Below are positions 37,648 to 63,428 of a stretch of 64,000 bases of DNA, piece after piece. A program made the translations under genes and the position numbers. Position 1 is the first letter of the stretch. Each line of letters begins with the position of its first letter. Below the pieces are notes generated by a model that was not told where the DNA came from, made no database searches, and was given only the letters and a program-made list of their open reading frames with translations. The DNA is taken from contig CAYLXA010000001.1 of NCBI GenBank assembly GCA_964387845.1, positions 192,001 to 256,000 of the forward strand, read 5' to 3'. This stretch comes from an uncultured bacterium. Lineage in GTDB: Bacteria > Omnitrophota > Omnitrophia > Omnitrophales > Abzuiibacteriaceae.

Positions 37648-38856
37648 CTAGTTCTTACAATTGTTTCTTATTTGTGCTGGTTTTGTTAGCACCATGTTAG
37701 CACGGCTTCCAAAAACTTCTTCATCCAATCTCTTCCCTACACCTTCATAAACAACCGGTAGCAAGTGTCCATATCGGTCAAGTGTTGTCTGAATAGAAGC
37801 ATGCCCTAATTGCGACTGAATAAGCTTAATATTTTCCCCCTGTGAAATCAAGAGGGTCGTGTAAGTATGTCTAAGGTCGTGAAACCGCACCCTTCTTAAT
37901 CCAGCCTTTTTGAGAGCACTAGAAAAATCCCGTTTCACCAAATTATCGGGATCCAGCGGATCGCCGTTTACATTGCAAAATATCAGATCGTGAAGTTTGG
38001 GAGGGAACAACTCACGGTATAAATTCAGTCCTTTCTCTAGAACTTTCGACATAACGATTGTTCTTATAGACCTTCTTGATTTTGGTGTAATAAATTTCCA
38101 ACGGTTACAATTCGTTTCTTTAATTTCGCGCCAACAGCGCCAATATAAACTCCTTCTCACGAAAATTATCTTCCGATTCCAGTCGATGTCTTTCCACTGG
38201 AGACCAAGCAACTCCCCTCTTCTCATCCCCGTCAGCACAGCTGTTAAAATGATGGTTCTTAGAGGTTCATCAGAGTTCTTTAAGAGAAGTCTGATATCTT
38301 GCGGTGTAAGAAAATCCATTTCTCTTTGCTCTTCTCGAATTCTGTCAATATCTGCCGCTGGATTTTCAAAGATATATTTCCATTTTCGAGCATGATTAAA
38401 CATGGTTTTTAAAAGGGACAGGTGGTGATTTACCGTCTTGGCGCTTCTTTTATCGTTTAACTCTGAAATGAATTTCTGAATATCATGCGGACGGATACCT
38501 AAAATAGCTCGGTCTCCCAACGCCGGAACAATGGTTGAATTAATCATTGACTCATAATTTCGGAATGTTGAGTCTTTAATAGAAACTCGAGCATAACTGT
38601 CTAGCCATTTCTTTGAAAATTCGGAAAACAAAATCTTGGGTGGCGCAAAGAAAGTTCCTTTATTAACGGATGAGAGTATTTCACTCAGCCTAGCCTCTGC
38701 GTCCTTTTTCTTCGGGCCAATGCGTTCCCACTTTTGCAAACGGCCTGACCTGAATATGATATAGTAGGCTGCTGATTGATGGCTGCATTTGCCGACACCG
38801 TCAGTCGCGTTTTTCCTGCATTTTCCACACCGCCATACGATACTACCTCTTGCCAT
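37648..38856 (-). CDS. int: Tyrosine-type site-specific integrase
   Basis: C-terminal catalytic box VRFHDLRHTYTTLLISQG...LGHASIQTTLDRYGHL (R..H-R-H..Y). Start taken at MARGSIVW; the track start at 38877 is further upstream. Confidence 0.9.
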   Translation of the reverse strand: MARGSIVWRCGKCRKNATDGVGKCSHQSAAYYIIFRSGRLQKWERIGPKKKDAEARLSEILSSVNKGTFFAPPKILFSEFSKKWLDSYARVSIKDSTFRNYESMINSTIVPALGDRAILGIRPHDIQKFISELNDKRSAKTVNHHLSLLKTMFNHARKWKYIFENPAADIDRIREEQREMDFLTPQDIRLLLKNSDEPLRTIILTAVLTGMRRGELLGLQWKDIDWNRKIIFVRRSLYWRCWREIKETNCNRWKFITPKSRRSIRTIVMSKVLEKGLNLYRELFPPKLHDLIFCNVNGDPLDPDNLVKRDFSSALKKAGLRRVRFHDLRHTYTTLLISQGENIKLIQSQLGHASIQTTLDRYGHLLPVVYEGVGKRLDEEVFGSRANMVLTKPAQIRNNCKN

Positions 38857-38907
38857 GACTGCCTCCAGGATTAGCAAGATTTATTGTACCGTATTTCGGT
38901 CTATTTA

Positions 38908-39117
38908 TCAACGCTTTCTTACAGGACGGCCGGCTTTTCTCCGTGTTTGAAGGTAATATCTGATGGAAGGCTCTTCTATAAGCCAGATTTTCGCGGTGTT
39001 CGTTATTTGCGCTTCCCTGCCCCTGATTAATCGCTTTCGAAGTAGGCGACGCAGATAACCCGGTGTCAATTTGTACTTCTTTGATGCTTCGAGTGTCGTT
39101 AGCATGACGTTTGCCAA
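38908..39117 (-). CDS. Small HTH DNA-binding protein (excisionase/MerR-like HTH_17)
   Basis: LEASKKYKLTPGYLRRLLRKRLIRG HTH; basic C-terminal tail; 69 aa. Preferred over the overlapping 99-aa ORF in another frame. Confidence 0.5.
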   Translation of the reverse strand: MANVMLTTLEASKKYKLTPGYLRRLLRKRLIRGREAQITNTAKIWLIEEPSIRYYLQTRRKAGRPVRKR

Positions 39118-39131
39118 AAGAAATATTTGCC

Positions 39132-39329
39132 TTATGATACATTATTTCTGCTCGTTTGGAAGAACCTTATTACCTCATCCTGATTGAAGCGAACGTACTT
39201 TCCCATCTTGATATGCGGAATTGCCTTTTGGCCCAAGCGTGTACGCTGATAAATCCACGTTTTAGGAACTCGCAATACTTTTGAAAGTTCACTAACTGTG
39301 ACCAAATTCTCAGACTGATTTCGTATCAT
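39132..39329 (-). CDS. AlpA-like phage transcriptional regulator/excisionase HTH protein
   Basis: LVTVSELSKVLRVPKTWIYQRTRLGQKAIPHIKMGKYVRFNQDEV is the AlpA-family pattern; 65 aa. Confidence 0.6.
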   Translation of the reverse strand: MIRNQSENLVTVSELSKVLRVPKTWIYQRTRLGQKAIPHIKMGKYVRFNQDEVIRFFQTSRNNVS

Positions 39330-44083: not shown

Positions 44084-44980
44084 TTAAATCCCGTCCAGCA
44101 AAATCACCTGAATCGGGGTAAACCCGTCAACCGTGACGGATGTCTCGACTTTTACGTTCCGTAAATCCTGCCGGGCCTGGCCCGTTAAATTCTGGGCAAG
44201 GTTCATTCTGAGATTATCTTCCAATGAATAGGGGTCTCTGCTCACACCGCCTGCAAACAGACTCACCCCCGCAAGCGCTGTTTCGCCCACCGCTTTCAGA
44301 ATCCTCATGTCCGTCTGCTTGCTTACGCGCCCTTTGATGCCCGCTGAACCGTCCTCTGAAAGGGCAATCGCTCGAATCCGCCTTTCACTGCCGTCAGGCA
44401 TAATCAAAAGTTCAAAACGTACGTTGATGCGGTTGAGACTTTTTAAGACACCCGCTTCACCTAGAAACTTGGAATCCTTGGGGATAACAACTTTTCCTTC
44501 TGCTTCAAAATCTTTTGTAATAACCGCGGTTACAGGCGCCGCGACATTGAATGAAAAGATCGTATCCTTCACGAAGGCGGGAATCTTCGTGCCGGATGGA
44601 ATATTAAATTTCTGAAGCGTGGTTGATTGCGTGCCGTAAACGCTTTGGCTTCTTTTTTCCTCTTCCTTAAAAAGAAAGACATCGATATCCGTGTTGTAGT
44701 TTCTTGCTTTCCTGACCGGCCTTGCGCCGGAGAGTGCGGATGGTTTACCGTTTGATGCCTTAGGCGGCCCCGCAAAATCCGATTGGCCAAATATCTTCCT
44801 GCCGGCAGTCTCAGAATTCTTCGTGGGTTCCCCCTTATCCGTGCGCCTTTTCTGCTTGGCGCTTTGAGAATAGAAGAGAACAAGAATCATGAGCACAAGC
44901 AGTAAGACCAGCAAGACCCTGTGCTTCTTCGCCGCGCGCAACAATGTTAAGAGAGATGTCGATTTTCTAAATTCAGTCAT
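44084..44980 (-). CDS. trbI: T4SS VirB10/TrbI-family protein
   Basis: N-terminal TM, Pro/Ser-rich linker, and C-terminal IPSGTKIPAFV...VTAVITKDFEAEGKVVIPKDSKFLGEAG...RINVRFELLIMPDGSERRIRAIALSEDGSAGIKGRV matching the TrbI beta-barrel pattern. Confidence 0.65.
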   Translation of the reverse strand: MTEFRKSTSLLTLLRAAKKHRVLLVLLLVLMILVLFYSQSAKQKRRTDKGEPTKNSETAGRKIFGQSDFAGPPKASNGKPSALSGARPVRKARNYNTDIDVFLFKEEEKRSQSVYGTQSTTLQKFNIPSGTKIPAFVKDTIFSFNVAAPVTAVITKDFEAEGKVVIPKDSKFLGEAGVLKSLNRINVRFELLIMPDGSERRIRAIALSEDGSAGIKGRVSKQTDMRILKAVGETALAGVSLFAGGVSRDPYSLEDNLRMNLAQNLTGQARQDLRNVKVETSVTVDGFTPIQVILLDGI

Positions 44981-44990
44981 AATTATTTCC

Positions 44991-46007
44991 TCAATCTAGC
45001 CAGCGAAAGCCTTCGATCCGTAAGTTGCGCTCTCCCTCATCTTCAAACAGGAGGACTACCGGCTTTTCGCCTTTCTTCAAGGATCGTCTGTCAAATTGAA
45101 TGATGCCGTACTGATAAGAATCCGGAGCTACGCTTTTTTCACTCTTAAGATCAGACGGCAGTTCGACCAAGCCTTCTTTGACTTTGCGCAGACCCAAAGA
45201 TTTTTTCTCATAAGTCTGAAGCCCTACGACCATTTCCCTGATTTTGTAATCTGTTTTCGATAAATTACGAATACTGAACCTAAGATACGCTTTCTCGCCA
45301 ATCGTGGAGATGGTTAATAGGTTGAGCCTCACACCGCCCTCCTCTGCGTAATCTTTCAGCTGAACCGCTTCATTTCCTTTTTTGATTTCCTCTTTCAATT
45401 TTTCTTCGGACAAGTCCTCGGCTTTCGCATCAAGCGCTTCTTCCTTCTGTTTAAACTTTTCTTTTATAGCCGTTTCGGTTTCGTTAACCCGCTTTTCAAA
45501 TGCGTTGTCTACGATCATGTCCTCATCCGGATACCTGAAATCAATTACGAAATCAGCTGTTTCGGGTTTCCCGACCGTAACATCAAAAGTAAGCCGCGAG
45601 GATTGCGTCATGATAGTCAGATTTGTCCGCGCATCAGGATCATCCGTGACCGGTTTTATAATGACTTCCTTCTCAAAAACGCCGACTTTGAAGAGTTCCT
45701 GATCTCCGATAAACACCTTGAGCGCGGGCTCTGGCAGATCGATTGTGGAAGCATAACCGAGAGCTGTTTGGAGTTTGTAAACCACGTTCGGCCTCATGCT
45801 TGCGGAGTAAATCCTCTTCTCGCTAACGGAATTCCTATTGATCCGTTTTCTTTCGGCTACAGCGTCCTGCGGCACCTGGTCTGGGTTGGCGACGCTAAGC
45901 TCTGCTTGCTCTACGCTATTTAAATCCTTCCCAAATTCCTCTGCGCAATAGCCATCGTGCGCAAGTGCAATTAAAATTACTGCGATTAAAGTAAAGCATT
46001 TCATCAT
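44991..46007 (-). CDS. T4SS VirB9/TrbG-like secreted protein
   Basis: Signal peptide; 338 aa and beta-rich; position between the VirB8-like and VirB10-like genes. Confidence 0.5.
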   Translation of the reverse strand: MMKCFTLIAVILIALAHDGYCAEEFGKDLNSVEQAELSVANPDQVPQDAVAERKRINRNSVSEKRIYSASMRPNVVYKLQTALGYASTIDLPEPALKVFIGDQELFKVGVFEKEVIIKPVTDDPDARTNLTIMTQSSRLTFDVTVGKPETADFVIDFRYPDEDMIVDNAFEKRVNETETAIKEKFKQKEEALDAKAEDLSEEKLKEEIKKGNEAVQLKDYAEEGGVRLNLLTISTIGEKAYLRFSIRNLSKTDYKIREMVVGLQTYEKKSLGLRKVKEGLVELPSDLKSEKSVAPDSYQYGIIQFDRRSLKKGEKPVVLLFEDEGERNLRIEGFRWLD

Positions 46008-46663
46008 GATTTCTGTTCATCCTTTCTTGACAAATCATTGAGAATCAACTCTTTGTAACCATCCACAAGAAGACCTTCGGGCGTGTTTGAACTTCGGGAG
46101 ACTTTCTTTAAAACGATATCTGCGCGGAATAAGATTTCCTCCCGGAAGGACGGTTCGTCATATCTCGAGATTCGCCTGACACCAAGGAGCGAAACAACCG
46201 CGGCATCGGGTGCATCACGCTCGATTTTCGTTTCTTTAAATTCAAGTTGGGTGTCAATTTGAGCGGTCTTCAGTTTTTCAACCAAGCCCGAATCAATAAG
46301 TGATTTTCTAGCCTCATGTTGAAGCCTCGTGGTCATTAAATTGAAGGCTTCCGCGAGGTCTTTTGTGACTGTGTACGAATTAAAGCCCGTATATCTGAGC
46401 GTAAACCGTTTTGATAGGGCAATGATTTCATGGTGCGTGGGCTCGTTATGTTTTGGCAGGTCTCGAATTACTTGTGCGCCCTCAACTTCTGAAACTCTGA
46501 TGACTACCGGAGGTTTCATGCCTAATATGACGGAACCCGCAAAGGCAAGCAGCACGATGAAGGCAAGTATAAGGTTGGCTTTCCTTAAGAATTGAATTTC
46601 CATTTCGAGGTCGCCAAAAGCTTCAAAGTAGCGGCGTTTGACCTTTGCAATGATTTCGCTCAT
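46004..46663 (-). CDS. T4SS VirB8/TrbF-like bitopic protein
   Basis: Cytoplasmic N-terminus, single TM (ILAFIVLLAFAGSVILG), and a ~150-aa periplasmic domain; synteny. Confidence 0.5.
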   Translation of the reverse strand: MSEIIAKVKRRYFEAFGDLEMEIQFLRKANLILAFIVLLAFAGSVILGMKPPVVIRVSEVEGAQVIRDLPKHNEPTHHEIIALSKRFTLRYTGFNSYTVTKDLAEAFNLMTTRLQHEARKSLIDSGLVEKLKTAQIDTQLEFKETKIERDAPDAAVVSLLGVRRISRYDEPSFREEILFRADIVLKKVSRSSNTPEGLLVDGYKELILNDLSRKDEQKS

Positions 46664-47505
46664 GAATTTCCTCCTGAGTAATTCGTCTGCCCTCTGCGGC
46701 TAGGAGTGAACCGGACAGCCGGAATGTGCCGCACGATTCTTTCCATGATTCTTCCGCCGATGCCGAACACTCGTCCGCCCGCCTGCGTGAAACCTTCTGC
46801 GCCCCGGATCATCATCAAAGAAATCATGGGCACAAAGAAAAGTATGATCAAAATGATGATGACGTTCATCGCAAACAAATCAAGATTGAGCGTTTGGGTA
46901 TTGGTGTAAAACTCGAAGAAATTAAGTTCGAAGAGAATACGGACAAAAAGAGACAACACGACGTTCCAATTCAACACTTCAAAGAGCCAGCGTACCCATA
47001 TCCGTGCCATGCCGGGCTGGAAAATACCGACACCCAAGAAGACAGGCCCTGAGATATAAAGCGCTGAAAGGAAAACGATCCTCACCCATCCAAATCCCCG
47101 AAGAATTGCGTAGGATATGTTGTAAGTTCCCTGCATCATCAAATCGAGAAAAGTCATCTTAAGAAGCGCAAGCATTCCCAGGTCATGATTTTGACGATAA
47201 GCCGTGAAAATCTTCTGTATCTGGTCTTTAAATTCTTCAGCCGGCATGAAGAAATTGGCAAGCAAATCCATTCCTCTTGAAACTTCTTCAAAGAAGGGCG
47301 TATAAATTGAATAAAGGCCGGTGATGAGCAGGACTCGGACGAAAAGTCCCGCGTAGTCGCTCCGCCCCTCCATTCCGTGCAAAAATTCTTTAATCAAGGC
47401 GAGTGTTAGAAACACGAAGATAAAACTGTAGCCGACTTCCCGAACCTCATGATAGAAGGCCGCGAAAATAGTGATGATTTCTTGGGTGGTGGGAAGTGAA
47501 CTCAT
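46660..47505 (-). CDS. T4SS VirB6/TrbL-like polytopic membrane protein
   Basis: 281 aa with at least five TM helices; synteny between the VirB5-like and VirB8-like genes. Confidence 0.5.
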   Translation of the reverse strand: MSSLPTTQEIITIFAAFYHEVREVGYSFIFVFLTLALIKEFLHGMEGRSDYAGLFVRVLLITGLYSIYTPFFEEVSRGMDLLANFFMPAEEFKDQIQKIFTAYRQNHDLGMLALLKMTFLDLMMQGTYNISYAILRGFGWVRIVFLSALYISGPVFLGVGIFQPGMARIWVRWLFEVLNWNVVLSLFVRILFELNFFEFYTNTQTLNLDLFAMNVIIILIILFFVPMISLMMIRGAEGFTQAGGRVFGIGGRIMERIVRHIPAVRFTPSRRGQTNYSGGNS

Positions 47506-48296
47506 CAGCCCGGCCTTCCCAAACTTTCAATACCAAGCTGCATCTCGCGCATATATTTAAGACGCTCCCGCTCGAAGCGCTTTTCATCGCGCGACACTTG
47601 CTCTAATTTGGTTGCTTCAACCTCAAGCAACTTGGCGAATATTTCCTGATTCTCTTGCGTAACGACAATCAATTTTCCGGAGGCATCCGCTGAAAGTCTT
47701 GCCGCCCCTTTTGGACTTGCCGTCTGCGATAATTCTTGAATGGTCTCGCCCGCTTGCTTTGTTTCATCTGAGCGCTTTCTAATTTCATGCGCCATTAAGT
47801 AAGCTTCGCCCACCTGCGATTCATCAAATGTGATATAGGGACGCTCCACAGATTGAGGGTCCATTCCATGAATGGTTTCAATATAGGACTTGATGCCTGA
47901 CGGGTCGCCGTAACCTTCAAGTATGGTCCCCAAATTTCGGATGGCGTCTTGTTCAACGGACGGTTCGAATCCAGCAAGGAATCCATCCCGAAATGTCGAC
48001 TGTGAATCTCTGAAGGCCCGCGCCGCATCCTGGACAAAACTTCTCACGAATTCTTCGATGCCAGCGTTAAAGCGCATCATTTCCTGATACGTGTTTTCAA
48101 GTTCCGTAAGCTGATCGAATAATACGATAATTTCCTGTGCAAACTGATTTTCCATCAAGGAATTGCGAAGTTCATTCAGCGCGGCATTGACAAAATCAAT
48201 CACAGGCAGATCCGCCTTCGCTGTGCCGGGGCAGACGGCTAGGCTTGCTGCTAAGTAAAGCGAGATGACCGTCAACCTTAATTTTGGTGATTTCAT
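47505..48296 (-). CDS. T4SS VirB5/TrbJ-like secreted coiled-coil protein
   Basis: Signal peptide, helical region; 263 aa; synteny after VirB4. Confidence 0.45.
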   Translation of the reverse strand: MKSPKLRLTVISLYLAASLAVCPGTAKADLPVIDFVNAALNELRNSLMENQFAQEIIVLFDQLTELENTYQEMMRFNAGIEEFVRSFVQDAARAFRDSQSTFRDGFLAGFEPSVEQDAIRNLGTILEGYGDPSGIKSYIETIHGMDPQSVERPYITFDESQVGEAYLMAHEIRKRSDETKQAGETIQELSQTASPKGAARLSADASGKLIVVTQENQEIFAKLLEVEATKLEQVSRDEKRFERERLKYMREMQLGIESLGRPG

Positions 48297-50773
48297 ATGG
48301 CAGGAGCCTCCTTACGCCACGTGATTCCTCGCGGATATTTACCCGCGAGTATTCTCAGCCGTTCCAACTCACTCAAACTTGGCTCCATTGCGCGGAGCCT
48401 TTCCTCCTCGATTTGGTCGTTGGGCTCTGTTGTTGCAATCCAGTAGTCAAGGGGCGAGGGCTCAAGCTTAGCCGTGACAGCTTTGTTAAAAAACTTGATG
48501 AAGATTTCGGAGAAAACACCGGGCCTTATTTCCAATTCTTCGCAAGCGCTGACCTCATTCGGATTCAGGTCAAACTTAGACAGCAATTCATGCCCCTTTT
48601 GAAGCTTTAAAATGTATTTCACGTAGGAATTGGAAAGAATGGCGGGTGCCGCCTTTGATTGAAGAAAATCCACAGGGCTTTGGCTGATTGAAAGAACGAG
48701 ACCGTTTGTCTTTCTGGCTGTTCTGTAAAGCTCTTCAATCAGCTTTGAGCCGACATCGTCATTAAAAAAGCGCCATCCTTCGTCAATGACAATGATTTTG
48801 CGGAGCGAAATGTCACCCAGTTTTCTAGCAATGGCGGATCGGATCACAAAAAAAAGAATGGATTGCAGTTCAGGGTGCTGTGAAAGCTTGCCCAAGTCAA
48901 AAACAATGAATCGGTTATCAAAAGTCAGGCTGCTTTGCCGGTTCAAGAGCCTGCCAAAGCGACCTTCGGTCCACATGCTTAAATTCTTTGAGAATTGATA
49001 CGCTTTCCGCTTGTCCTCGTCATCACCCGCCGCATAATTTCGAAGAATCATTTGCACATCGCCCAAAAGAGGTCGGTGTGTATCCTGAATGCTTTCGTAG
49101 ACTTTCAGAATTGATTGTTCAAGAATTCGAAGCTCTGAACTTTTCACTCTCTCCCTCTCAGAGACCATCTTTTCAAGCAGGGTGCTCAGAAAACCTAAAA
49201 GATCGGCGTTCACTTCGCCGGGCTTTGGGAATAATTGACGTTTCTCAGGAAATAGGTTAAGCGCATATTCTTCCGTGCAGTCGATTTGCAAGTAATGACC
49301 GTCAAATAAACGCGCAAGTTTTTTATAACTGCCGCCCATATCGATTACGATAACGTGATTCCGATCTCCTGCGATGAGAAAACTGCTCAGCAAATGATTC
49401 GCAGTGAATGACTTCCCGGAACCCGTGCTCCCAATCATGACTGCATGCTTCGCCGGAAGCGACGGATCAAAAAGATTAAGCGCAAACCCTTCGTCTTCGT
49501 GAGTTTTGAGCAAAATATCGAAGTCATCCGTTCCCTTCCATTCTTCCCCGAGCGGCAATAGATGGCTCAATGCGCCTGTTAAGACAGGAAACACGGATTG
49601 ATTTTGATCGGCCTGCAGGGGTAAATGTGACAGAAACAACGTGTCATGCTCCAAATGATCGAAGATTCCGACTGAGCCGCCCAGTTTCGGGAAAGCTTTC
49701 AAAACAGCTTCCTTCTTACGAGCAAGCGCCGCTTCGTCCTTTGCCTTAATGAGCACAGAAAGCGAGATATCAAAGACGCTTTCGCCTTGCTCGGCCATTT
49801 GATGAAGAAATGATTCGTATTGGGACGCCTTTTGCCTTGCAAAGTGATCCTCTGAAATCCGGAAGAAGGCGTTTGCGTGCGCGAAATTGGCTCTGATTCG
49901 AAGCTTGCCAATTTCTTTGTCCTGGTCTTTCTTCCTAAGAGTAATCATCCATTCTGAATCATCCGGCATAAGGCGATCAAATGACTTAATCATTTTCAAG
50001 CCGACATGGCCGGGCAGCGTCCTTAAATTAGCAGCCGAATGAAAATAACCGTCCATATAAAGCGAATTTCTGTAAATTTTGGGCGGATGAAGCAAGAGCC
50101 GCGACCTCAGCGTTTCAAACTTGGGATTGGTTAATGGATTCTCCTGAAACGCGTCTTCGTATCGGACAATCTGAGATAGTGAAGGATTAAGTTTCCTGTA
50201 GTACTCGCGGATAACGTCCATTGCGGAAAGTCTCTCGACCGTGACACCCAAGGCCTTCAACGCCGTGATGATCAACGACTCAGCTTGAAGCAGATAAGCC
50301 TTGCCTTCTTCATGATTTGAGCGATGAAATGATCTTGACCGCTTCCGTTTTTTCTCAGGGCTTAAATGGCTTAAAAACAAAAAAATTTCCTTTTTTACCA
50401 AACGCGAATTTGTTAGTACATTTACTTTCTCCCGCACGATCACGTTGACCAATGGGTCTTGGCGTGAGGTGTTCGCTTGACACCTCCCGAGCATCTCATC
50501 GTCGCCCCGGCTTGAGCGTTTAACGAATGACAATAAAATCCCTGAGGGCAGCCGATTCAGCAGTTTCTGAAGTTCATGCATGAACGCGACTATTTCGGCG
50601 TCATCATAAAGAAGGTAATCAACACCTGAAACTTTATAGACAAGCGCCATTCGCCCTGAAACCCCGACGGCTAAGCCATCTTCTTCAACAGCCATGAGAT
50701 CAAGTGCCGGGAAAAATGGAACGCGTTGCAGTGAGTCGCTCAATTCTTTAATCGTCAGCAATGTTTCCATCAA
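48293..50773 (-). CDS. T4SS VirB4/TrbE ATPase
   Basis: 826 aa; Walker A MIGSTGSGKSF, Walker B IVIDEGW; CagE/TrbE/VirB4 organisation. Confidence 0.9.
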   Translation of the reverse strand: MMETLLTIKELSDSLQRVPFFPALDLMAVEEDGLAVGVSGRMALVYKVSGVDYLLYDDAEIVAFMHELQKLLNRLPSGILLSFVKRSSRGDDEMLGRCQANTSRQDPLVNVIVREKVNVLTNSRLVKKEIFLFLSHLSPEKKRKRSRSFHRSNHEEGKAYLLQAESLIITALKALGVTVERLSAMDVIREYYRKLNPSLSQIVRYEDAFQENPLTNPKFETLRSRLLLHPPKIYRNSLYMDGYFHSAANLRTLPGHVGLKMIKSFDRLMPDDSEWMITLRKKDQDKEIGKLRIRANFAHANAFFRISEDHFARQKASQYESFLHQMAEQGESVFDISLSVLIKAKDEAALARKKEAVLKAFPKLGGSVGIFDHLEHDTLFLSHLPLQADQNQSVFPVLTGALSHLLPLGEEWKGTDDFDILLKTHEDEGFALNLFDPSLPAKHAVMIGSTGSGKSFTANHLLSSFLIAGDRNHVIVIDMGGSYKKLARLFDGHYLQIDCTEEYALNLFPEKRQLFPKPGEVNADLLGFLSTLLEKMVSERERVKSSELRILEQSILKVYESIQDTHRPLLGDVQMILRNYAAGDDEDKRKAYQFSKNLSMWTEGRFGRLLNRQSSLTFDNRFIVFDLGKLSQHPELQSILFFVIRSAIARKLGDISLRKIIVIDEGWRFFNDDVGSKLIEELYRTARKTNGLVLSISQSPVDFLQSKAAPAILSNSYVKYILKLQKGHELLSKFDLNPNEVSACEELEIRPGVFSEIFIKFFNKAVTAKLEPSPLDYWIATTEPNDQIEEERLRAMEPSLSELERLRILAGKYPRGITWRKEAPAI

Positions 50774-51033
50774 ATTTCCTCCCGTGTCTGTGTGAAATAG
50801 GCGGGCATGAAAAAATAACGAATCAAATTCTTAGTAAACCTGTCTGCCTTATTCCTTTTGTAATATCTGAGAAATAAATAGACCGCGAAGACAAATGAAA
50901 GATTGACCATGAGATTCTTTGAGCCGAGAAAGACCATAAGATAGACCGCTAACAAACCAAGCAAGTCCATCCATTCAAGACCGAAGAATTTGTTTTTTTG
51001 TGTAATCATTGGATACATCGTTATTGGCTTCAT
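50770..51033 (-). CDS. T4SS VirB3/TrbD-like small membrane protein
   Basis: 87 aa with two TM helices; translationally coupled between the VirB2-like and VirB4-like genes. Confidence 0.55.
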   Translation of the reverse strand: MKPITMYPMITQKNKFFGLEWMDLLGLLAVYLMVFLGSKNLMVNLSFVFAVYLFLRYYKRNKADRFTKNLIRYFFMPAYFTQTREEI

Positions 51034-51034
51034 G

Positions 51035-51337
51035 CTAAAACCCCGTCACATTCTTTATTAAGTCAAGCACTGCTCGGGCAAGCATAATGAGCGCTCCGCC
51101 CCCTGCTGCCAGGGCACCGCGCCTCATGCCTTGTTCATTTCCAAGCGCCATTGAAATACCAGATACCGCAATTCCGATCACAAGTATTCCAGGACCTACG
51201 CTCTGTATTAGAAAAGTCCCAACAGCATCCAGGAAATAGCCCAACTCTTCTTGATTCTGCGCCTCCGCATACGCAATGCCCGCGTGAAGATAAATAGCCG
51301 TCAGTATCACAAGATATTTCGCAATCATTTTCCGCAT
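51035..51337 (-). CDS. T4SS pilin VirB2/TrbC-like; start taken at the internal ATG (MRKMIAKYL)
   Basis: Long signal peptide ending AYA, then two hydrophobic helices (GILVIGIAVSGISMALG / ALAAGGGALIMLARAV) typical of conjugative pilins. The track start at 51430 is a TTG. Confidence 0.6.
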   Translation of the reverse strand: MRKMIAKYLVILTAIYLHAGIAYAEAQNQEELGYFLDAVGTFLIQSVGPGILVIGIAVSGISMALGNEQGMRRGALAAGGGALIMLARAVLDLIKNVTGF

Positions 51338-51412
51338 ATATTCACCTTGGGGGATAGCGGGGTCAATTTTGACCCCGCCCTTTGGAACAGCCGCATGCGC
51401 TGTAAAAGTCCC

Positions 51413-51456
51413 CTCATAGATGTTGTGCAAAAACGGGCATTTCGTAACAAGAAATT
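51413..51456. promoter_or_regulatory. Conserved ~45-nt element (copy 1), ~75 nt upstream of the pilin gene; candidate promoter/operator
   Basis: ctcatagatgttgtgcaaaaacGGGcatttcgtaacaagAaaatt is about 90% identical to 58630-58674. Confidence 0.5.
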
Positions 51457-51468
51457 TAAAATCCCATC

Positions 51469-52324: not shown

Positions 52325-53362
52325 TTATACGAGTTGATATTGCCGGTTTTGAATTTCCAAGTTACTTTCCTCCTTTTCGTACTCCGTTAGATAATCAAAG
52401 CTGCAATCTTCACAGAATGAGCCGCCGGTTGCTTCGTCATAAAAGAGTTTGCCGGCTTCCACTTGGTCTTTACACAGTGAACATAGAAGCTTTGATTTTT
52501 CAGTGATGTTTGAATCTTCGAGAAATCCCATATACCGAAGCTCATCAAAGCTGTAGAGATAGGGATTCCCCGGCACTTTGAAGTCATCCTCTGTGAGCGA
52601 CTTGCGCATCGGGTTCTCCATCTCGCAAGGTATTTTTCGCATGGGACATTTTTCAGAAAGTTCTTCAACGTTAATTTTGTAAAGCACGTTGGATTGAATC
52701 TCGAGAAAATTGCCTTTCATGAAGTTTCTTGCAAGAGCGTATTGCAAGTGGATTTTCTCGCTCGACCAAAGCAAGGTTTTGAACTTAGGGACATAAACAG
52801 CGTAAAGCGTCCGTTCAACATTTCGGATGAGATAAAGCGTTTTCCTGTCATCCGTTTGCATGAATGCCAACGCAAAATCCCCAAACATCATCGAAAGCCG
52901 TTCAGCGACTTCTCTGTCGGAGGAGGCGCCATCCAAAACACGGAATACCGCCTCGCTATCGACGTCAGTTTTTTGCTCCGTGTTAAATCGTTTGAGAAGT
53001 TCAGTTCGATTTAGAAAATGCCCATTGTGCACACCGGCAAAATTCTCCGAGACAAACGGATGACAATTCCGGGATGAGATTGCTCCTACTGTGGCAAGCC
53101 GCGTATGGCCCAGAACAATGAGCGTATCCGCACCGATTTTCTTGATGACGTTACGCATCCGGACGGTGCGCAAAAGCTCGCTCGCTGGTCTGGCTTCCTT
53201 GAAAACGGTCATGCTCTCTTCTGCTGCTGTGAGCAATCCAGTTCCGTCTTGACCTCTTGTTTCATTGAGAAAAGCCAAATCCATCACTACGCCTTGAAGC
53301 CTCAGTTTCTCTGCTCCGCTTAAGGGCAGGGCCTCTCTCACAAATCCGAATATTCCACACAT
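52325..53362 (-). CDS. Class-II (Ntn) glutamine amidotransferase domain protein with C-terminal Cys-rich zinc ribbon
   Basis: N-terminal MCGIFGF, the Cys-2 nucleophile hallmark of GAT-II/Ntn hydrolases; ...HTRLATVG...NCHPF; C-terminus CSLCKD...CEDCSFDY. Confidence 0.65.
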   Translation of the reverse strand: MCGIFGFVREALPLSGAEKLRLQGVVMDLAFLNETRGQDGTGLLTAAEESMTVFKEARPASELLRTVRMRNVIKKIGADTLIVLGHTRLATVGAISSRNCHPFVSENFAGVHNGHFLNRTELLKRFNTEQKTDVDSEAVFRVLDGASSDREVAERLSMMFGDFALAFMQTDDRKTLYLIRNVERTLYAVYVPKFKTLLWSSEKIHLQYALARNFMKGNFLEIQSNVLYKINVEELSEKCPMRKIPCEMENPMRKSLTEDDFKVPGNPYLYSFDELRYMGFLEDSNITEKSKLLCSLCKDQVEAGKLFYDEATGGSFCEDCSFDYLTEYEKEESNLEIQNRQYQLV

Positions 53363-53410
53363 GGTAAGTCTCCTTAGGTTTAATTGGGATTGAACTACTG
53401 AAGTGATAAA

Positions 53411-55141: not shown

Positions 55142-55369
55142 CTAGCTGACTTGGACTTGCTGTTCAGCTCTGCGCAAACCTTCAATCAGTTCGCCGATGA
55201 GCGCACAGTTAATTGTGACGCCTTTCTTCGTCGGCCGCGCTTCGCCCGTTACGGCATCAGCGAAAAAGACCCTGACATCAACGTAATCACGGTCTTTGTA
55301 CTTGCCGACTGAGATTTTAACTTCTTCGTTTTCATTACGTTTAAAACTGTAAATTTCCTGCTTTTCCAT
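55142..55369 (-). CDS. PC4/YdbC-like ssDNA-binding protein (paralog 2)
   Basis: 75 aa; ...VGKYKDRDYVDVRVFF...KKGVTINCALIGELIEGL is the PC4-like pattern; AAGGAGA RBS. Confidence 0.5.
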   Translation of the reverse strand: MEKQEIYSFKRNENEEVKISVGKYKDRDYVDVRVFFADAVTGEARPTKKGVTINCALIGELIEGLRRAEQQVQVS

Positions 55370-55536: not shown

Positions 55537-57360
55537 TCATCGTTTGGCTCCTCTTATCTTTTCAAATTTATGCGCAGTATCACTGAGCGTTTGAAACTGA
55601 TCGCTTTCGTCTTGAACGATTTCAGGCTTTGCGCTTTCACGTTTCCAATGCTCTGTTGCCCGCTCACGTTCATCTTTAATCTTCATGTGTATCCATGTTA
55701 AATTAATGTCTGTTTCAGAGGACAGCCGCAGATAATCAATTTTAAAACTTGGATATTTCATGACAACAATCGCTTCGCCGCGTCCAAGTGAACGAACCAA
55801 GTCAGGGTCGATGCGAAACGTCTGCGCTTCTCTGACAGATCCTCGCCCTGTCATGTCTGTGCCGAGCATGCCGGATTCAGTCTGATACGTGGAAACAAAA
55901 GTTCTTCGGGAGCCTCCAATTTTTGAATATTTGTCAATCGAGAATGGGTCATCCTGACGCATGATGATTTTTACGTTTGTGTTCTCGAGGATTTGCTGCT
56001 GAAAGGTCATGCGCTTCGCCGCGAGGTCAGCCAGGCTTTGGTGAAGAAGCGTTACAGCAAGTTTGGCGCCGCGCGCTTTATTCATGAAATCGATGAAGTT
56101 CTCGTAGACAAAGCTTGAAAATTCATCCACGTACACAGGAAAAAAGTGCCGCTCACCCTCTTCCATCTGCGTTTGAATGTAGTTGGAAACTGTTTTAATG
56201 TCCTGCAGGATGAGACGCCCGAATCTTTTCGCCGTTTCTTCGTAGCCCTGCGTATTGAGTGCGAAATAGACAATTTTATTCTTCTGATAAACCTCTAGGA
56301 GGTCAATTTTTGATTCCTGAGAATCCGTCAGTCTTGAAAACTCTGATTTAGTTACGAGGCCTAAATCCGCGATGAATCCAGAGAGAAACTTGGTATTATC
56401 ATGAAACATGTCTTTCATGACTTCCAAGTCCTTCGACATCCGGATATCGTCAAGCTGCGCTATCAGCGCTCGTAATTGATTCTTGTCCGTTAAAAGCTCA
56501 TACAAATCCCGGAACCTGACTTTTCTGTTCAAACTCACCAAAGCTCTGAGCAATGTCAATGCGGCTTCTTCCGCCTTTTTTCTGTAAAATTCCTCGCGCC
56601 ATTCAGTAGAGCCGATCAGTTTGTCCTTAATCTCTGATGCGTTTCCGCGCAAGAGTGGGTTGTATGTGTCCGATATTTCCGGATGTGATAGCGAGAAGAA
56701 TAGAAAGTCATCTTTCCTGCCGTTAATTTGAACAAAGTAACGAATCTTCGCCAATAATTCCAAATCGCCCTTGGCGTCCACGACTATCGCCCCGCGGCCT
56801 CGCTCGATATCCCTTTTAAGCAGCGGAAGCATGACTGATTCTGTTTTACCAACGCCCGTTGAACCTACAACATGCGTATGCATGAGCCTCATGTCATCCG
56901 TTAAGTAACAGCCCTTGCCCGACCAATAACTCGTACCCAGATAAGCTTGATTCGCCTCAACCGCCGTTTTTTGCTTCGTGATTTCTCTCGAAGAAATTCT
57001 CTTCAATCTGCGTTTCTTATCGTCAGAGGATGTATCTTTCGAATTCTTCATTGCATATCCCGTCAACATGAAAAACGGCAATGTAATCAACAAATAGGCG
57101 CTGTAGAGGCACGTAGCCGCGACTCCCGCTTTCGTCCAAGGTCTCGCCTCAAACCTTTCAACAAACCCATTTAAATATTTAATTGACCAAATGGTCGTAA
57201 GCGCTGCAAGCAAGGTGCTCAAATAAGCTATTATCTTGACCCAAGAACTAGATTGATTCTTGACCCATCCGTCAAGCTTCTTGCCCAACCATACCGGAAC
57301 GGATACGAAAAGGAATTCAAACGTTGACCCCGTAAGGCCCTTTGACGGCTTCTCATTCAT
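55537..57360 (-). CDS. Type IV coupling protein (VirD4/TraG/TraD family)
   Basis: Two N-terminal TM helices; Walker A VVGSTGVGKTES, Walker B-like IVVDAKGDLE, and the TraG/VirD4-like C-terminal all-alpha region; 607 aa. Confidence 0.8.
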   Translation of the reverse strand: MNEKPSKGLTGSTFEFLFVSVPVWLGKKLDGWVKNQSSSWVKIIAYLSTLLAALTTIWSIKYLNGFVERFEARPWTKAGVAATCLYSAYLLITLPFFMLTGYAMKNSKDTSSDDKKRRLKRISSREITKQKTAVEANQAYLGTSYWSGKGCYLTDDMRLMHTHVVGSTGVGKTESVMLPLLKRDIERGRGAIVVDAKGDLELLAKIRYFVQINGRKDDFLFFSLSHPEISDTYNPLLRGNASEIKDKLIGSTEWREEFYRKKAEEAALTLLRALVSLNRKVRFRDLYELLTDKNQLRALIAQLDDIRMSKDLEVMKDMFHDNTKFLSGFIADLGLVTKSEFSRLTDSQESKIDLLEVYQKNKIVYFALNTQGYEETAKRFGRLILQDIKTVSNYIQTQMEEGERHFFPVYVDEFSSFVYENFIDFMNKARGAKLAVTLLHQSLADLAAKRMTFQQQILENTNVKIIMRQDDPFSIDKYSKIGGSRRTFVSTYQTESGMLGTDMTGRGSVREAQTFRIDPDLVRSLGRGEAIVVMKYPSFKIDYLRLSSETDINLTWIHMKIKDERERATEHWKRESAKPEIVQDESDQFQTLSDTAHKFEKIRGAKR

Positions 57361-58088
57361 CCCAAGATGGAGCGTAGAGGAATTCTGGATGCCTTATTCA
57401 TCAGCTCCGCATCTTTCTTTTTCAGTAAGAGCTCATCATAGAGCACAAAGCAAAGCTTATTCTGAGGAACTTCAATGTCCAATAGCCAGCTCTTCACCAT
57501 GTGCCAAGACAGGATATAAATCACCAGGGTGAAATCATTTAGACGGCTGTATTTCGCAAACCTTGTCTCATACCTTTCCCGTTCCCTGAAGGAATTTTCA
57601 AGTTCAATCGCAATTCTCTGCCCGCTTACTTCGATGACCGCGTCAGGAAAAAATTCCCGGTCGTGCTCTTCTTTTCTGACAACCCGTTCGCTCAGCCATT
57701 TAACACCCTTAAAGTCCCGAAACAGGCACCGCAACGTCGCCAACTTGAGCGTATGCTCTATCGTATATTGGTTGATATCCCCGATTTCTCCAAAGCCACG
57801 GTCCAGCCCTTTCTCTTTCAAGACATCTATCCCCTCAGCCGTCAGCAGAAAAAGTCTCACTTTTTCTGATTTCGCCTTCTGGACATCCAAAGTCCTAATA
57901 AATCCTGCATCAACAAGCTTGCTCAAACGCTGCCTTGCAGTTCCTGACCTCACTTCGCTGTCAGGCCAAAATGCCGAGTAAATTTGATTCGCCATCATGT
58001 ACTTTTGTTCATTCAAGTACGTGAATATCTCGATATCACGCTCTGTAATGACGACACGCCGCAATTTATCCAATAAGTTTTCAGCCAC
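57357..58088 (-). CDS. Replication-relaxation family protein (winged-helix N-terminus); candidate non-canonical relaxase/accessory factor
   Basis: N-terminal wHTH ERDIEIFTYLNEQKYMMANQIYSAF...RQRLSKLVDAGFI; 243 aa; translationally coupled to the coupling-protein gene. Confidence 0.4.
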   Translation of the reverse strand: MAENLLDKLRRVVITERDIEIFTYLNEQKYMMANQIYSAFWPDSEVRSGTARQRLSKLVDAGFIRTLDVQKAKSEKVRLFLLTAEGIDVLKEKGLDRGFGEIGDINQYTIEHTLKLATLRCLFRDFKGVKWLSERVVRKEEHDREFFPDAVIEVSGQRIAIELENSFRERERYETRFAKYSRLNDFTLVIYILSWHMVKSWLLDIEVPQNKLCFVLYDELLLKKKDAELMNKASRIPLRSILG

Positions 58089-58141: not shown

Positions 58142-58549
58142 TTACCGAATGGCCAGATCGGCCATTTTCCTCGCTAGATTTCTTGTTTCACTGACCGTAT
58201 TGCCAATGCTCCTTAAGTCATCCCTCAAGTTCAGCTGCCTATCCTTAAACCGATTTGGCGTCTTTGGCGCTTGAACAGGCTTCATCTGATAAACTTTTGG
58301 GGCTACCGTCAAACGAGCCTCCCTTGCCGCTGGTTCAATCTTACTCACACCCGCCTCAGCGTCTTTTGTCCATTGCAATTTCATGACCTGTTTTACGAGA
58401 TAAGCAGGCAGAGTCAGCCCTATTGCCGTTGACCCGATGATCATCCAGCAAGAAATACTGATACTTACAAGCTTAACTCCTAGTTTTCTCAGCTTGAGAT
58501 CCGTACGATCAACCGTTTCACTGACTTGCTTTTCAATTTCTTTCAACAT
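58142..58549 (-). CDS. Hypothetical membrane protein
   Basis: 135 aa with one TM helix; preceded by the conserved 45-nt element. Confidence 0.35.
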   Translation of the reverse strand: MLKEIEKQVSETVDRTDLKLRKLGVKLVSISISCWMIIGSTAIGLTLPAYLVKQVMKLQWTKDAEAGVSKIEPAAREARLTVAPKVYQMKPVQAPKTPNRFKDRQLNLRDDLRSIGNTVSETRNLARKMADLAIR

Positions 58550-58629
58550 TGTGGAACTCCTTATGTGGAAGCTTTATCGCTTCAAGTCTTTCATCCAAGT
58601 TTATGCTTGGCGGTTTCTGTTTATTTTTC

Positions 58630-58674
58630 GAAATGTTCTCTCATAGATGTTGTGCAAAAACAGCCATTTCGTAA
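58630..58674. promoter_or_regulatory. Conserved ~45-nt element (copy 2), ~80 nt upstream of the 58142-58549 gene
   Basis: ctcatagatgttgtgcaaaaacAGCcatttcgtaacaagCaaatt; see copy 1. Confidence 0.5.
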
Positions 58675-58761
58675 CAAGCAAATTCAATTAACAGATGGAA
58701 AATATTTTTTTATGTCTATTAATGAACTCAATTCATTCAACTCACCACTTCCTCACGAGCA

Positions 58762-58852
58762 CCTGTCCAAAAACCCTATCTCTCTACACACACCACACCC
58801 ACTGACAAGTACCCCTCGATTACGGATGGGAGAGATAGGGTTTTTGGACGGG
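58762..58852. repeat. Long perfect inverted repeat (20-bp arms, extendable to 23 bp with one G-U pair, 45-nt loop); candidate oriT or structured RNA
   Basis: 58765-58784 gtccaaaaaccctatctctc and 58830-58849 gagagatagggtttttggac; lies in the 455-nt non-coding gap between the STAND gene and the relaxation/T4CP block. Confidence 0.6.
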
Positions 58853-59004
58853 GACTCTCCCCGACGCTTGTGCGAAGTGAGGAAGTTACGTAGAATGCTT
58901 CAGTTACGAAGGAAGCGATGAATTCAAGTTCCCCTAAGTTACAATTTTTTGCGGGGATGAATGCGGAAATTTAAAATTAAACAAACATGTTCTTACGGTA
59001 ATGC

Positions 59005-63071: not shown

Positions 63072-63428
63072 TCACGCTGAGGAATTATCAAGTGAAATCG
63101 ATAAGAGCCAATGGCCATTGTGCTGATTTTTGATTTTTTTAAGATTTTCATACCGTTTAAACAAATCATCCGGCAAACGTTCAAGGGCGTTTTCGATATG
63201 CTTATTGACAGTCTTTGGCTTAATTTTCATGGCTTGAGCGATTTCCTTCCGCTTCATGAAAAGCGAGAGAATAAAAGACGCCTTCTGGCTTGCCGTCAGC
63301 GAACGGAATAAGACCGGAGAACGGGGATTAATCTTTTCAGAGAACACGCGAGAGTTTGATTGGTCTCGCTCCTGCTCTCTGACAAGTTGTTCTAATTCCG
63401 GTGAAAACTTTTTAAATTGTTTTGGCAT
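63072..63428 (-). CDS. Small sigma-70 region-4-like HTH regulator
   Basis: LTASQKASFILSLFMKRKEIAQAMKIKPKTVNKHIENALERL; 118 aa. Confidence 0.5.
   Translation of the reverse strand: MPKQFKKFSPELEQLVREQERDQSNSRVFSEKINPRSPVLFRSLTASQKASFILSLFMKRKEIAQAMKIKPKTVNKHIENALERLPDDLFKRYENLKKIKNQHNGHWLLSISLDNSSA

What the first reader, a model, noticed from the sequence alone, without database searches (positions are those of the whole stretch)
57357..58088. No canonical MOB relaxase; a replication-relaxation-family wHTH protein is coupled to the VirD4 gene instead
Within ~26 kb of ICE DNA with a complete mating-channel core and a coupling protein I find no HUH (3-His motif) relaxase. The only candidate DNA-processing protein is a 243-aa winged-helix protein overlapping the T4CP stop codon. 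The relaxase may be beyond the window, or this element may use a non-canonical relaxase.
Basis: inference. Interest (0 to 1): 0.5.

Follow-up and report, generated by a model that had tools for sequence, protein, structure and literature searches.

The report
MOBC-type relaxase beside the coupling protein
The 243-residue protein is very probably this conjugative element's DNA-nicking enzyme, a divergent member of the known MOBC relaxase family (restriction-enzyme-like, not the usual HUH type), so no relaxase is missing and the finding is largely ordinary.

Summary
The ORF at 57357..58088 (minus strand, 243 aa) is real.

It passes Pfam PF13814 Replic_Relax (30.4 bits, cut-off 25.3). PF13814 is the Pfam model of the MOBC relaxase family (CloDF13 MobC, pAD1 TraX), a recognised non-HUH class with a PD-(D/E)XK nuclease fold.

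Evidence that it is a MOBC member:
- A profile comparison with a plasmid MobC gives 97.9% probability.
- The residues matching TraX-like E28, D152, E170, E172 and Y181 are all present: E27, D149, E162, E164, Y173.

No HUH relaxase is found in the element from 37.6 to 64 kb, or in the 9.4 kb beyond the window.

The module (about 133-aa membrane protein, then mobC, then T4CP) recurs in five other metagenomic loci, one of them a Candidatus Omnitrophota MAG; a sixth carries a truncated copy without a T4CP. In every locus it follows a conserved nested inverted repeat whose inner stem covaries. That repeat is a strong oriT candidate.

Verdict: a new, divergent member of a known kind. Interest is low.

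The parts
57357..58088 (-). mobC-like gene: a 243-aa MOBC-family relaxase candidate. N-terminal winged helix (about residues 16-82) plus a C-terminal PD-(D/E)XK nuclease domain (about residues 100-243). Candidate catalytic residues are E27, D149, E162, E164 and Y173.
55537..57360 (-). Type IV coupling protein (VirD4/TraD type, 607 aa). Its start codon overlaps the mobC stop codon by 4 bp.
   Evidence: PF02534, PF12696 and PF10412. TIGR03743 SXT_TraD partial match. Walker A motif and transmembrane segments. The same 4-bp overlap occurs in L003, L004, L008, L009 and L012.
58142..58549 (-). Conserved 135-aa single-pass membrane protein, first gene of the mob operon. Possibly a relaxosome or T4CP accessory; function unknown.
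   Evidence: No Pfam, NCBIfam or PADLOC hit. One transmembrane segment. Homologues sit at the same position in L003, L004, L008, L009, L010 and L012.
58747..58886 (.). Nested inverted repeat, the oriT candidate. Outer arms are 58747-58756 and 58877-58886 (ACTTCCTCAC / GTGAGGAAGT). Inner arms are 58757-58784 and 58830-58857 (28 nt, 45-nt loop). The motif TCCCCGTCC at the base of the inner stem is conserved: TCCCCG and the final CC are invariant, and the middle T is C in L008.
   Evidence: The same architecture is present in all seven loci. Inner stem: 104 of 108 cells paired and 13 of 18 positions with compensatory changes. No Rfam family matches.
58884..58916 (-). Two short direct repeats (15 nt, 18-nt spacing) that contain T(T/A)CGTAAC, flanking the nested repeat. 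Possibly a protein-binding site.
   Evidence: The pattern TWCGTAAC occurs 7 times in the window against 2.05 expected; 3 copies lie in this intergenic region and 1 in the pilin promoter region.
58631..58710 (-). 80-nt regulatory or promoter region upstream of the mob operon. It is repeated (78% identity) upstream of the pilin/T4SS operon at 51404-51483.
   Evidence: An equivalent repeat pair is present in L009 and L012.
63072..63428 (-). 118-aa LuxR/GerE-type regulator. It belongs to the conserved backbone upstream of the oriT candidate in related loci.
   Evidence: Pfam GerE. Homologous to L004_105, L008_106 and L009_118, which occupy the same relative position.
44084..51430 (-). T4SS (mating-pair formation) operon: TrbC/VirB2 pilin, TraL/VirB3-like protein, VirB4 (826 aa), three membrane or secreted proteins (263, 281 and 219 aa), VirB9-like (CagX) and VirB10-like (TrbI).
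37648..39329 (-). Tyrosine integrase (37648-38877) and an HTH_17 excisionase-like gene (39132-39329), at the left end of the element.

Best explanation
The 243-aa protein is the relaxase of this integrative conjugative element. It is a divergent member of the MOBC family (CloDF13 MobC / pAD1 TraX type).

Proposed mechanism (inferred by analogy unless noted):
1. The N-terminal winged helix recognises the transfer origin, which lies in the 58.6-58.9 kb intergenic region. The best candidate is the conserved nested inverted repeat at 58747-58886, with the flanking T(T/A)CGTAAC repeats.
2. The C-terminal PD-(D/E)XK nuclease domain makes a metal-dependent, strand-specific nick. The acidic residues D149, E162 and E164, with E27, would bind the metal. 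Y173 is the counterpart of the essential Y181 of TraX.
3. The gene is translationally coupled (ATGA overlap) to the T4CP gene. The T4CP receives the nicked strand and feeds it to the VirB-like T4SS. It may also help relaxation, as MobB does in CloDF13.

Shown here: homology, fold, conserved active-site residues, conserved synteny, the covarying DNA hairpin, and absence of any other relaxase family in the element.

Not shown: nicking itself, the nic position, and the role of Y173.
For: Homology
- PF13814 above its gathering cut-off.
- NF041423 MobC_subf, E 2.2e-15.
- tblastn against PLSDB hits 'MobC family replication-relaxation protein' on Acinetobacter plasmids, one of which (pAYTCM-4) was retrieved and is typed MOBC by MOB-suite.
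- hhalign of the family profile against that MobC: 97.9% probability, E 5.6e-13 over 173 columns.

Literature
- PF13814 equals MOBC (PMC5357655).
- MOBC relaxases are PD-(D/E)XK enzymes with a DEE motif, an N-terminal winged helix and an essential Y181 (PMC12857230, PMC6736028, PMC3424549).

Structure
- AlphaFold2 pLDDT 89.

Active site
- Window E27/D149/E162/E164/Y173 align with pTEF1 TraX-like E28/D152/E170/E172/Y181.
- H112, P148, D149, E162, E164 and Y173 are at least 90% conserved across 67 diverse homologues.
- 40 of those 67 hit PF13814 and no other family recurs.

Context
- mobC and the T4CP gene overlap by 4 bp in six loci.
- The annotated MOBC-typed plasmids pAYTCM-4 and pTEF1 also place the gene next to a T4CP gene.
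- MobB of CloDF13 is both a T4CP and a relaxation accessory (PMC7431656).
- The nested inverted repeat is conserved and its inner stem covaries.

No competitor
- No other relaxase family in 34.5-64 kb or in the next 9.4 kb.
- In the Omnitrophota locus L008, housekeeping genes end 445 bp before the LuxR-like gene, about 2.6 kb upstream of mobC, with only small ORFs lacking family hits in between. That leaves no room for another relaxase on that side.
Against: - There is no biochemical evidence for this protein or its clade.
- Identity to the prototypes is low: 19-26% (19-21% to the pTEF1 TraX-like protein and 21-23% to Acinetobacter MobC in the multiple alignments; 26.5% over the tblastn segment). 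The NCBIfam MobC score is far below the subfamily cut-off (56.6 against 200). The direct profile comparison with the pTEF1 TraX-like protein is not significant (E 0.037).
- The far end of the element is not delimited. The partner of the tRNA 3' fragment beside the integrase was not found within 73.4 kb. A second relaxase further away cannot be strictly excluded.
- Steczkiewicz et al. (PMC3424549) suggested that HTH-fused members of this family could be transcription regulators.
Confidence: 0.8

Rival explanations
1. The protein is only a DNA-binding regulator or relaxosome accessory: a winged helix with a nuclease-like domain used for binding. The true relaxase would lie elsewhere in the element, beyond the sequence examined.
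For: The distal end of the ICE is not defined, because the partner of the tRNA fragment was not found up to 73.4 kb. PMC3424549 proposed a regulatory role for HTH-fused Replic_Relax proteins. A shared operator-like repeat lies just downstream of the hairpin.
Against: The acidic triad and the Y173 position are conserved at 90% or more across the wide family, which is not expected for a purely binding domain. No relaxase occurs in 26 kb of backbone plus 9.4 kb beyond, nor in any related locus. In L008 the backbone ends about 2.6 kb upstream of mobC.
Confidence: 0.08
2. It is a replication initiator, or a dual replication/relaxation protein, for the excised circular element. Transfer nicking would then be secondary or absent.
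For: The Pfam family name derives from plasmid replication as well as relaxation (PMC3424549, Table 1).
Against: The gene is translationally coupled to the T4CP gene in every locus that has one and lies next to the T4SS regulon promoter. That is a transfer context, not a replication one. No rep-type accessory genes are nearby.
Confidence: 0.06
3. It is a restriction-like, defence or toxin nuclease carried as cargo and unrelated to transfer.
For: PD-(D/E)XK fold. Defence-type cargo lies next to the module in the window (a STAND NTPase) and in L010 (Type ISP R-M, GmrSD).
Against: No PADLOC hit. Position and 4-bp coupling to the T4CP gene are fixed across loci, whereas the adjacent cargo varies. 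The protein is homologous to MobC of MOBC-typed plasmids.
Confidence: 0.02

Closest known systems
MobC/MobB of plasmid CloDF13 (MOBC1), and the MobC of Acinetobacter plasmid pAYTCM-4 (NZ_CP121780.1, WP_049069514.1)
   Same: A protein of about 240-250 aa with a winged helix and a PD-(D/E)XK domain. It matches the same Pfam and NCBIfam models. hhalign gives 97.9% probability. The gene is adjacent to a T4CP gene on the same strand. In CloDF13 the T4CP, MobB, also assists relaxation (PMC7431656).
   Different: Identity is only about 21-26%, and the score is below the NCBIfam subfamily cut-off. The gene order is reversed: mobC then T4CP with a 4-bp overlap here, against T4CP then mobC in pAYTCM-4. 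Here the gene is part of a self-transmissible ICE with its own T4SS, not a small mobilizable plasmid. An extra conserved 135-aa membrane protein sits upstream.
TraX/TraW of the Enterococcus faecalis pheromone plasmid pAD1 (the pTEF1 homologue WP_002387611.1 was used here)
   Same: MOBC family. The catalytic positions align: E28/D152/E170/E172/Y181 correspond to E27/D149/E162/E164/Y173. It has an N-terminal winged helix and a T4CP gene (TraM-recognition-domain protein) close upstream. The pAD1 oriT also combines a large inverted repeat with short direct repeats (PMC12857230).
   Different: Identity is 19-21%, and the direct profile comparison is not significant. In pTEF1 the T4CP gene lies upstream of the relaxase gene rather than downstream, and the host is Gram-positive with a different T4SS type.
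PD-(D/E)XK type II restriction endonucleases and nickases (e.g. NgoMIV, BsaWI, N.BspD6I)
   Different: There is no sequence similarity. The domain is fused to a winged helix and is embedded in a conjugation operon rather than paired with a methyltransferase.

Membership tests
MOBC relaxases (Pfam PF13814 Replic_Relax) | Significant match to the family profile at the curated threshold | tested here: met
   PF13814 scores 30.4 bits against a cut-off of 25.3, E 5.2e-07. The homologue in L008 scores 34.4 bits. 40 of 67 wider homologues hit PF13814.
MOBC relaxases (Pfam PF13814 Replic_Relax) | Homology to a protein typed as MOBC in an annotated plasmid | tested here: met
   tblastn hits mobC of pAYTCM-4, typed MOBC by MOB-suite. 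hhalign gives 97.9% probability, E 5.6e-13. The comparison with the pTEF1 TraX-like protein is not significant on its own.
MOBC relaxases (Pfam PF13814 Replic_Relax) | N-terminal winged helix plus a PD-(D/E)XK (restriction-endonuclease-like) catalytic domain | tested here: met
MOBC relaxases (Pfam PF13814 Replic_Relax) | Acidic metal-binding motif (DEE) and the tyrosine equivalent to TraX Y181 | tested here: met
   D149, E162, E164 and Y173 align with D152, E170, E172 and Y181 of the pTEF1 TraX-like protein, and E27 with E28. These positions are at least 90% conserved in 67 sequences. The motif definition comes from PMC6736028.
MOBC relaxases (Pfam PF13814 Replic_Relax) | No HUH / 3-His motif | tested here: met
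   No HxH pattern in the protein. The only histidines are at 112, 142 and 196.
MOBC relaxases (Pfam PF13814 Replic_Relax) | Site- and strand-specific nicking at a cognate oriT, and requirement for transfer | not testable with these tools
   Only a candidate oriT was found: the conserved, covarying nested inverted repeat at 58747-58886.
NCBIfam NF041423 MobC subfamily (CloDF13-type MobC) | Score at or above the curated subfamily cut-off (200 bits) | tested here: not met
   56.6 bits, E 2.2e-15. The protein is homologous but lies outside the curated subfamily. It belongs to a small divergent clade: 14 representatives at E<=1e-30 among 1416 at E<=1e-3.
VirD4/TraD-type type IV coupling proteins (the neighbouring gene) | T4CP profile match, Walker A NTPase motif and an N-terminal membrane anchor | tested here: met
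   PF02534, PF12696 and PF10412 above their cut-offs. GSTGVGKT at residue 166 and hydrophobic N-terminal segments.
Integrative conjugative element | Integrase/excisionase, T4SS, T4CP and relaxase present, bounded by att repeats | tested here: inconclusive
   All gene modules are present. A tRNA 3' fragment lies beside the integrase at 37521-37565, but no matching repeat or intact tRNA was found up to 73.4 kb.

The most novel reading that the evidence does not exclude
This small clade is known almost only from metagenomes; one locus is in a Candidatus Omnitrophota MAG. It could represent a distinct MOBC sub-type. In it, a minimal 243-aa restriction-enzyme-like relaxase, a dedicated about 133-aa membrane protein and a translationally coupled T4CP would form a membrane-anchored relaxosome. 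That relaxosome would act on an unusual nested-hairpin oriT, possibly by hydrolytic nicking without a covalent protein-DNA intermediate, which is the unresolved question for MOBC relaxases in general.
Probability: 0.15. Interest if true: 0.45.

Novelty: new member of a known kind. Interest (0 to 1): 0.2.

Why it matters
The result mainly corrects an annotation. A scan that looks only for HUH relaxases would score this element as lacking a relaxase or as non-autonomous. In fact it carries a complete transfer set: integrase, T4SS, T4CP and a MOBC relaxase.

It also extends MOBC-driven ICEs to poorly known, uncultivated lineages. It supplies a compact, conserved candidate oriT, a covarying nested hairpin, that could be used to test how PD-(D/E)XK relaxases nick and hand DNA to the coupling protein. 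It does not open a question that cannot already be addressed with pAD1 or CloDF13.

Tried and rejected
- The paper by Francia et al. 2013 (PMC3746933) is not held. The motif definitions were therefore taken from papers that cite it (PMC6736028, PMC12857230).
- The CloDF13 record NC_002119.1 was fetched to obtain MobC. Its mob region is fragmented into short ORFs in that record and no intact MobC could be read. The Acinetobacter pAYTCM-4 MobC and the pTEF1 TraX-like protein were used instead.
- Searches for att repeats or the intact tRNA partner of the fragment at 37521-37565 found nothing convincing. This covered 58-73.4 kb with exact 12-mers, fuzzy 25-mers, local alignment and a search for a tRNA 5' half. 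The only exact match was a 16-mer at 37110 and 58573, whose positions do not fit an element boundary.
- The genome-contig scan returned a single relative, the Omnitrophota MAG, so the window's own organism was not identified. The cluster look-up gave no names or accessions. A literature search for the run accession found nothing.
- The sigma-70 promoter scan found no site in 58.4-59.1 kb. I also read the shared repeat as a possible sigma-54 promoter and rejected it because the GG-GC spacing is 8 nt, not 10.
- Rfam gave only chance-level matches in the intergenic region.
- PADLOC gave no hit for the STAND protein or the mob proteins.
Full report
**1. The observation**

The ORF at 57357..58088 (minus strand) encodes 243 aa. 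It starts at a GTG that follows a GGGAG Shine-Dalgarno sequence. The sequence at its end reads ...TTG GGA TGA with ATG AAT GAG in the +2 register. Its stop codon therefore overlaps the start codon of the 607-aa gene at 55537..57360 by 4 bp. It is the T4CP start codon: the 243-aa gene is upstream and the pair looks translationally coupled.

The downstream protein is a genuine VirD4/TraD-type coupling protein. It matches PF02534, PF12696 and PF10412. It has the Walker A motif GSTGVGKT and N-terminal hydrophobic segments.

The 243-aa protein passes Pfam PF13814 Replic_Relax at 30.4 bits against a cut-off of 25.3, E 5.2e-07.

**2. The element**

Left of about 37.5 kb the window is chromosomal: MetH, FtsH, BacA, HemN, MsrA and others. 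The element then contains, all on the minus strand:
- a tyrosine integrase (37648-38877) and an HTH_17 excisionase-like gene (39132-39329);
- cargo genes (nucleotidyl transferase, HlyD, GT2, OEP);
- a VirB-like T4SS: TrbC pilin, TraL/VirB3-like protein, VirB4, three membrane or secreted proteins, then CagX/VirB9-like and TrbI/VirB10-like proteins;
- a GerE-type regulator;
- an amidoligase/GATase pair;
- PC4-like ssDNA-binding proteins;
- the T4CP, the 243-aa protein and a 135-aa membrane protein.

No ORF hits any HUH, MOBH or MOBT relaxase family. The proteins without hits are small or membrane proteins.

A 100%-identical Logan contig extends the sequence 9.4 kb past the window end. It encodes a response regulator, a 210-aa protein, a TPR protein, a 2070-aa RHS/YD toxin and a Glucodextran_B protein. 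Again there is no relaxase.

**3. What the 243-aa protein is**

PF13814 is the Pfam model for the MOBC relaxase family. Coluzzi et al. 2017 list 'Rel_PF13814/MobC' (PMC5357655). The 2025 T4SS nomenclature review lists pAD1 TraX and CloDF13 MobC as MOBC relaxases related to restriction endonucleases, with an N-terminal winged helix in TraX (PMC12857230). Steczkiewicz et al. 2012 assigned Replic_Relax to the PD-(D/E)XK superfamily (PMC3424549). MOBC enzymes use a DEE metal-binding motif, and TraX Y181 is essential for transfer (PMC6736028).

The following tests were made here.
- *NCBIfam.* NF041423 'MobC family replication-relaxation protein' matches residues 14-193 with E 2.2e-15. The score of 56.6 bits is below the subfamily cut-off of 200.
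- *Plasmid relatives.* tblastn against PLSDB finds only mobC genes of Acinetobacter plasmids and a Thermobacillus 'replication-relaxation' gene. pAYTCM-4 is typed MOBC by MOB-suite.
- *Profile comparison.* A profile of the window protein and 15 homologues aligns to that Acinetobacter MobC with 97.9% probability, E 5.6e-13. The comparison with the pTEF1 TraX-like protein alone is not significant, but the motif columns align.
- *Active-site residues.* In the multiple alignment, window E27, D149, E162, E164 and Y173 fall on E28, D152, E170, E172 and Y181 of the pTEF1 protein.
- *Wider family.* An exhaustive HMM search finds 1416 cluster representatives at E<=1e-3, and only 14 at E<=1e-30. In a 67-sequence sample, H112, P148, D149, E162, E164 and Y173 are at least 90% conserved. 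40 of the 67 hit PF13814 and no other family recurs.
- *HUH motif.* The protein has no HxH motif.

All testable defining features of MOBC are met. Only the narrow NCBIfam subfamily threshold is not.

**4. Conserved context**

Five further loci carry the same module, [about 130-135-aa (179 aa as called in L008) membrane protein][mobC-like gene of about 240 aa][T4CP of about 605-613 aa], with the same 4-bp overlap between mobC and the T4CP gene:
- L003, a metagenome assembly (the contig ends inside the downstream gene, so its identity as a T4CP is inferred from position and the overlap);
- L004, L009 and L012, Logan contigs;
- L008, a Candidatus Omnitrophota groundwater MAG, 44% identity.

L004, L008, L009 and L012 continue into the same T4SS genes (pilin only in L012). 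L010 carries a truncated copy without a T4CP gene, next to a defence island.

A LuxR-type gene homologous to the window's 63072-63428 lies upstream of the module in L004, L008 and L009. In the window a 1304-aa DUF4062/STAND NTPase gene is inserted between them.

In L008, housekeeping genes (CdsA, HtrA, DUF2339) end 445 bp before that LuxR-like gene. The mob module therefore sits at the edge of the backbone, and no further relaxase can lie on that side.

The annotated MOBC-typed plasmids examined here also pair the relaxase gene with a T4CP gene, in the opposite order. pAYTCM-4 has a TraM-recognition-domain protein followed by mobC. pTEF1 has a T4CP gene, a small ORF and then the replication-relaxation protein. 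CloDF13 MobB is both a T4CP and an accessory for relaxation (PMC7431656).

**5. Candidate oriT**

Upstream of the 135-aa gene, every locus has a nested inverted repeat.
- The outer arms have conserved sequence, CTTCCTCAC(C)...(G)GTGAGGAAG. In the window they are at 58747-58756 and 58877-58886.
- A conserved TCCCCGTCC motif follows (TCCCCG and the final CC invariant).
- The inner stem is 18-28 bp with a 15-45-nt loop. In the window it is at 58757-58784 and 58830-58857.

The inner-stem sequence differs between loci but stays complementary. Across six distinct loci, 104 of 108 cells are paired and 13 of 18 positions show changes on both sides. No Rfam family matches.

The hairpin lies upstream of an 80-nt block (58631-58710) that is repeated at 78% identity upstream of the pilin operon (51404-51483). 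The same paired arrangement occurs in L009 and L012. This suggests a shared promoter or operator. If so, the hairpin lies outside the mob transcript and acts at the DNA level.

Two short repeats containing T(T/A)CGTAAC flank the hairpin, and the motif recurs in both promoter blocks.

This anatomy, a large inverted repeat plus short direct repeats, resembles the description of pAD1 oriT2 (PMC12857230). The function here is inferred, not shown.

**6. Mechanism proposed**

After excision by the integrase and excisionase, the winged helix of the MOBC-like protein binds the oriT region. The PD-(D/E)XK domain nicks one strand with metal ions held by D149, E162 and E164, plus E27. Y173 acts as TraX Y181 does, either as the covalent nucleophile or as a positioning residue; this is unresolved for the whole family. 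The co-translated T4CP docks the complex and pumps the strand through the T4SS. Homology, fold, residues, synteny and the hairpin are shown here. The catalytic steps rest on analogy with TraX and MobC.

**7. Rivals**

- A purely regulatory role, with a relaxase elsewhere, is disfavoured by the conserved active site and by the absence of any other relaxase in 26 kb of backbone plus 9.4 kb and in all related loci.
- A replication-only role is disfavoured by the fixed coupling to the T4CP gene.
- A defence-nuclease role is disfavoured by that coupling too, and by the absence of PADLOC hits.
- The residual uncertainty is that the far att site was not found. A tRNA(CAT) 3' fragment lies beside the integrase at 37521-37565 and has no partner up to 73.4 kb.

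**8. Verdict**

It is misframed, because the Replic_Relax protein belongs to MOBC, an established MOB class whose studied plasmids also carry a T4CP gene (adjacent to the relaxase gene in the two annotated relatives examined here). This is a new, divergent member of a known kind, found in uncultivated bacteria. Interest is low (0.2). The covarying nested-hairpin oriT candidate and the duplicated promoter block are the most useful by-products.

Noticed in passing
window 37521-37565 (minus strand): A 45-nt 3' fragment of a tRNA lies 82 nt from the integrase stop codon. It runs from the anticodon loop CTCATAA through the T-arm to CCA. ARAGORN calls no tRNA here. No intact partner or matching repeat was found in the window or in the 9.4 kb beyond it, so the far end of the element is undefined.
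   Followed up: partly
window 51404-51483 and 58631-58710; L009 1226-1279 and 10172-10225; L012 2218-2265 and 12511-12558: A 48-80-nt block is duplicated upstream of the mob operon and of the pilin/T4SS operon in three independent loci. In each locus a LuxR/GerE- or sigma70_r4-type regulator gene lies upstream of the pilin-side copy, and in the window and L009 also upstream of the mob-side copy. It looks like a shared promoter or operator. No sigma-70 consensus site was found.
   Followed up: partly
window 59005-62919 (minus strand): A 1304-aa protein with DUF4062 and a STAND NTPase domain lies in a low-GC stretch (0.38-0.41). It is inserted between the conserved LuxR-like gene and the oriT candidate. 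Related loci carry different genes at this position. It looks like defence-type cargo, but PADLOC gave no hit.
   Followed up: partly
window 52325-54685 (minus strand): An Amidoligase_2 protein (424 aa) and a class-II glutamine amidotransferase (345 aa) form a gene pair inside the transfer region. Function here is unknown.
   Followed up: no
window 55142-55369 and 43820-44065 (minus strand): Two small PC4-like (PF02229) proteins of 75 and 81 aa flank the transfer genes. PC4-like genes recur in L009 and L012. They may be the element's ssDNA-binding proteins.
   Followed up: no
window 58838 (L001 ends here); L002: The short-read (Logan) assembly of the same genome breaks inside the inner inverted repeat, so the mob module and the STAND gene fall on separate contigs. 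This is an assembly effect of the long hairpin.
   Followed up: yes
window 37110-37125 and 58573-58588: An exact 16-nt direct repeat, TTTATCGCTTCAAGTC. One copy lies inside the 141-aa lipoprotein ORF left of the integrase, the other just upstream of the 135-aa gene. My estimate is that about 0.01 such matches would arise by chance, yet the positions do not fit an element boundary.
   Followed up: partly
L010 / L011, 10001-10561: A truncated (186-aa) copy of the mobC-like gene keeps its hairpin and its 134-aa partner gene but has no T4CP gene downstream. It sits next to Type ISP R-M, PIF1 helicase and GmrSD genes. It is probably a decayed element within a defence island.
   Followed up: no
L005 (NC_002119.1, CloDF13): The PLSDB/RefSeq record of the MOBC prototype plasmid is typed 'non-mobilizable' by MOB-suite. 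Its mob region reads as fragmented ORFs, so it is unusable as a reference for MobC.
   Followed up: no
window 39330-43814 (minus strand): A cargo block next to the integrase encodes a nucleotidyl transferase, a HlyD-type membrane-fusion protein, a family-2 glycosyltransferase and an outer-membrane efflux protein. Together they look like a polysaccharide synthesis and export cassette.
   Followed up: no
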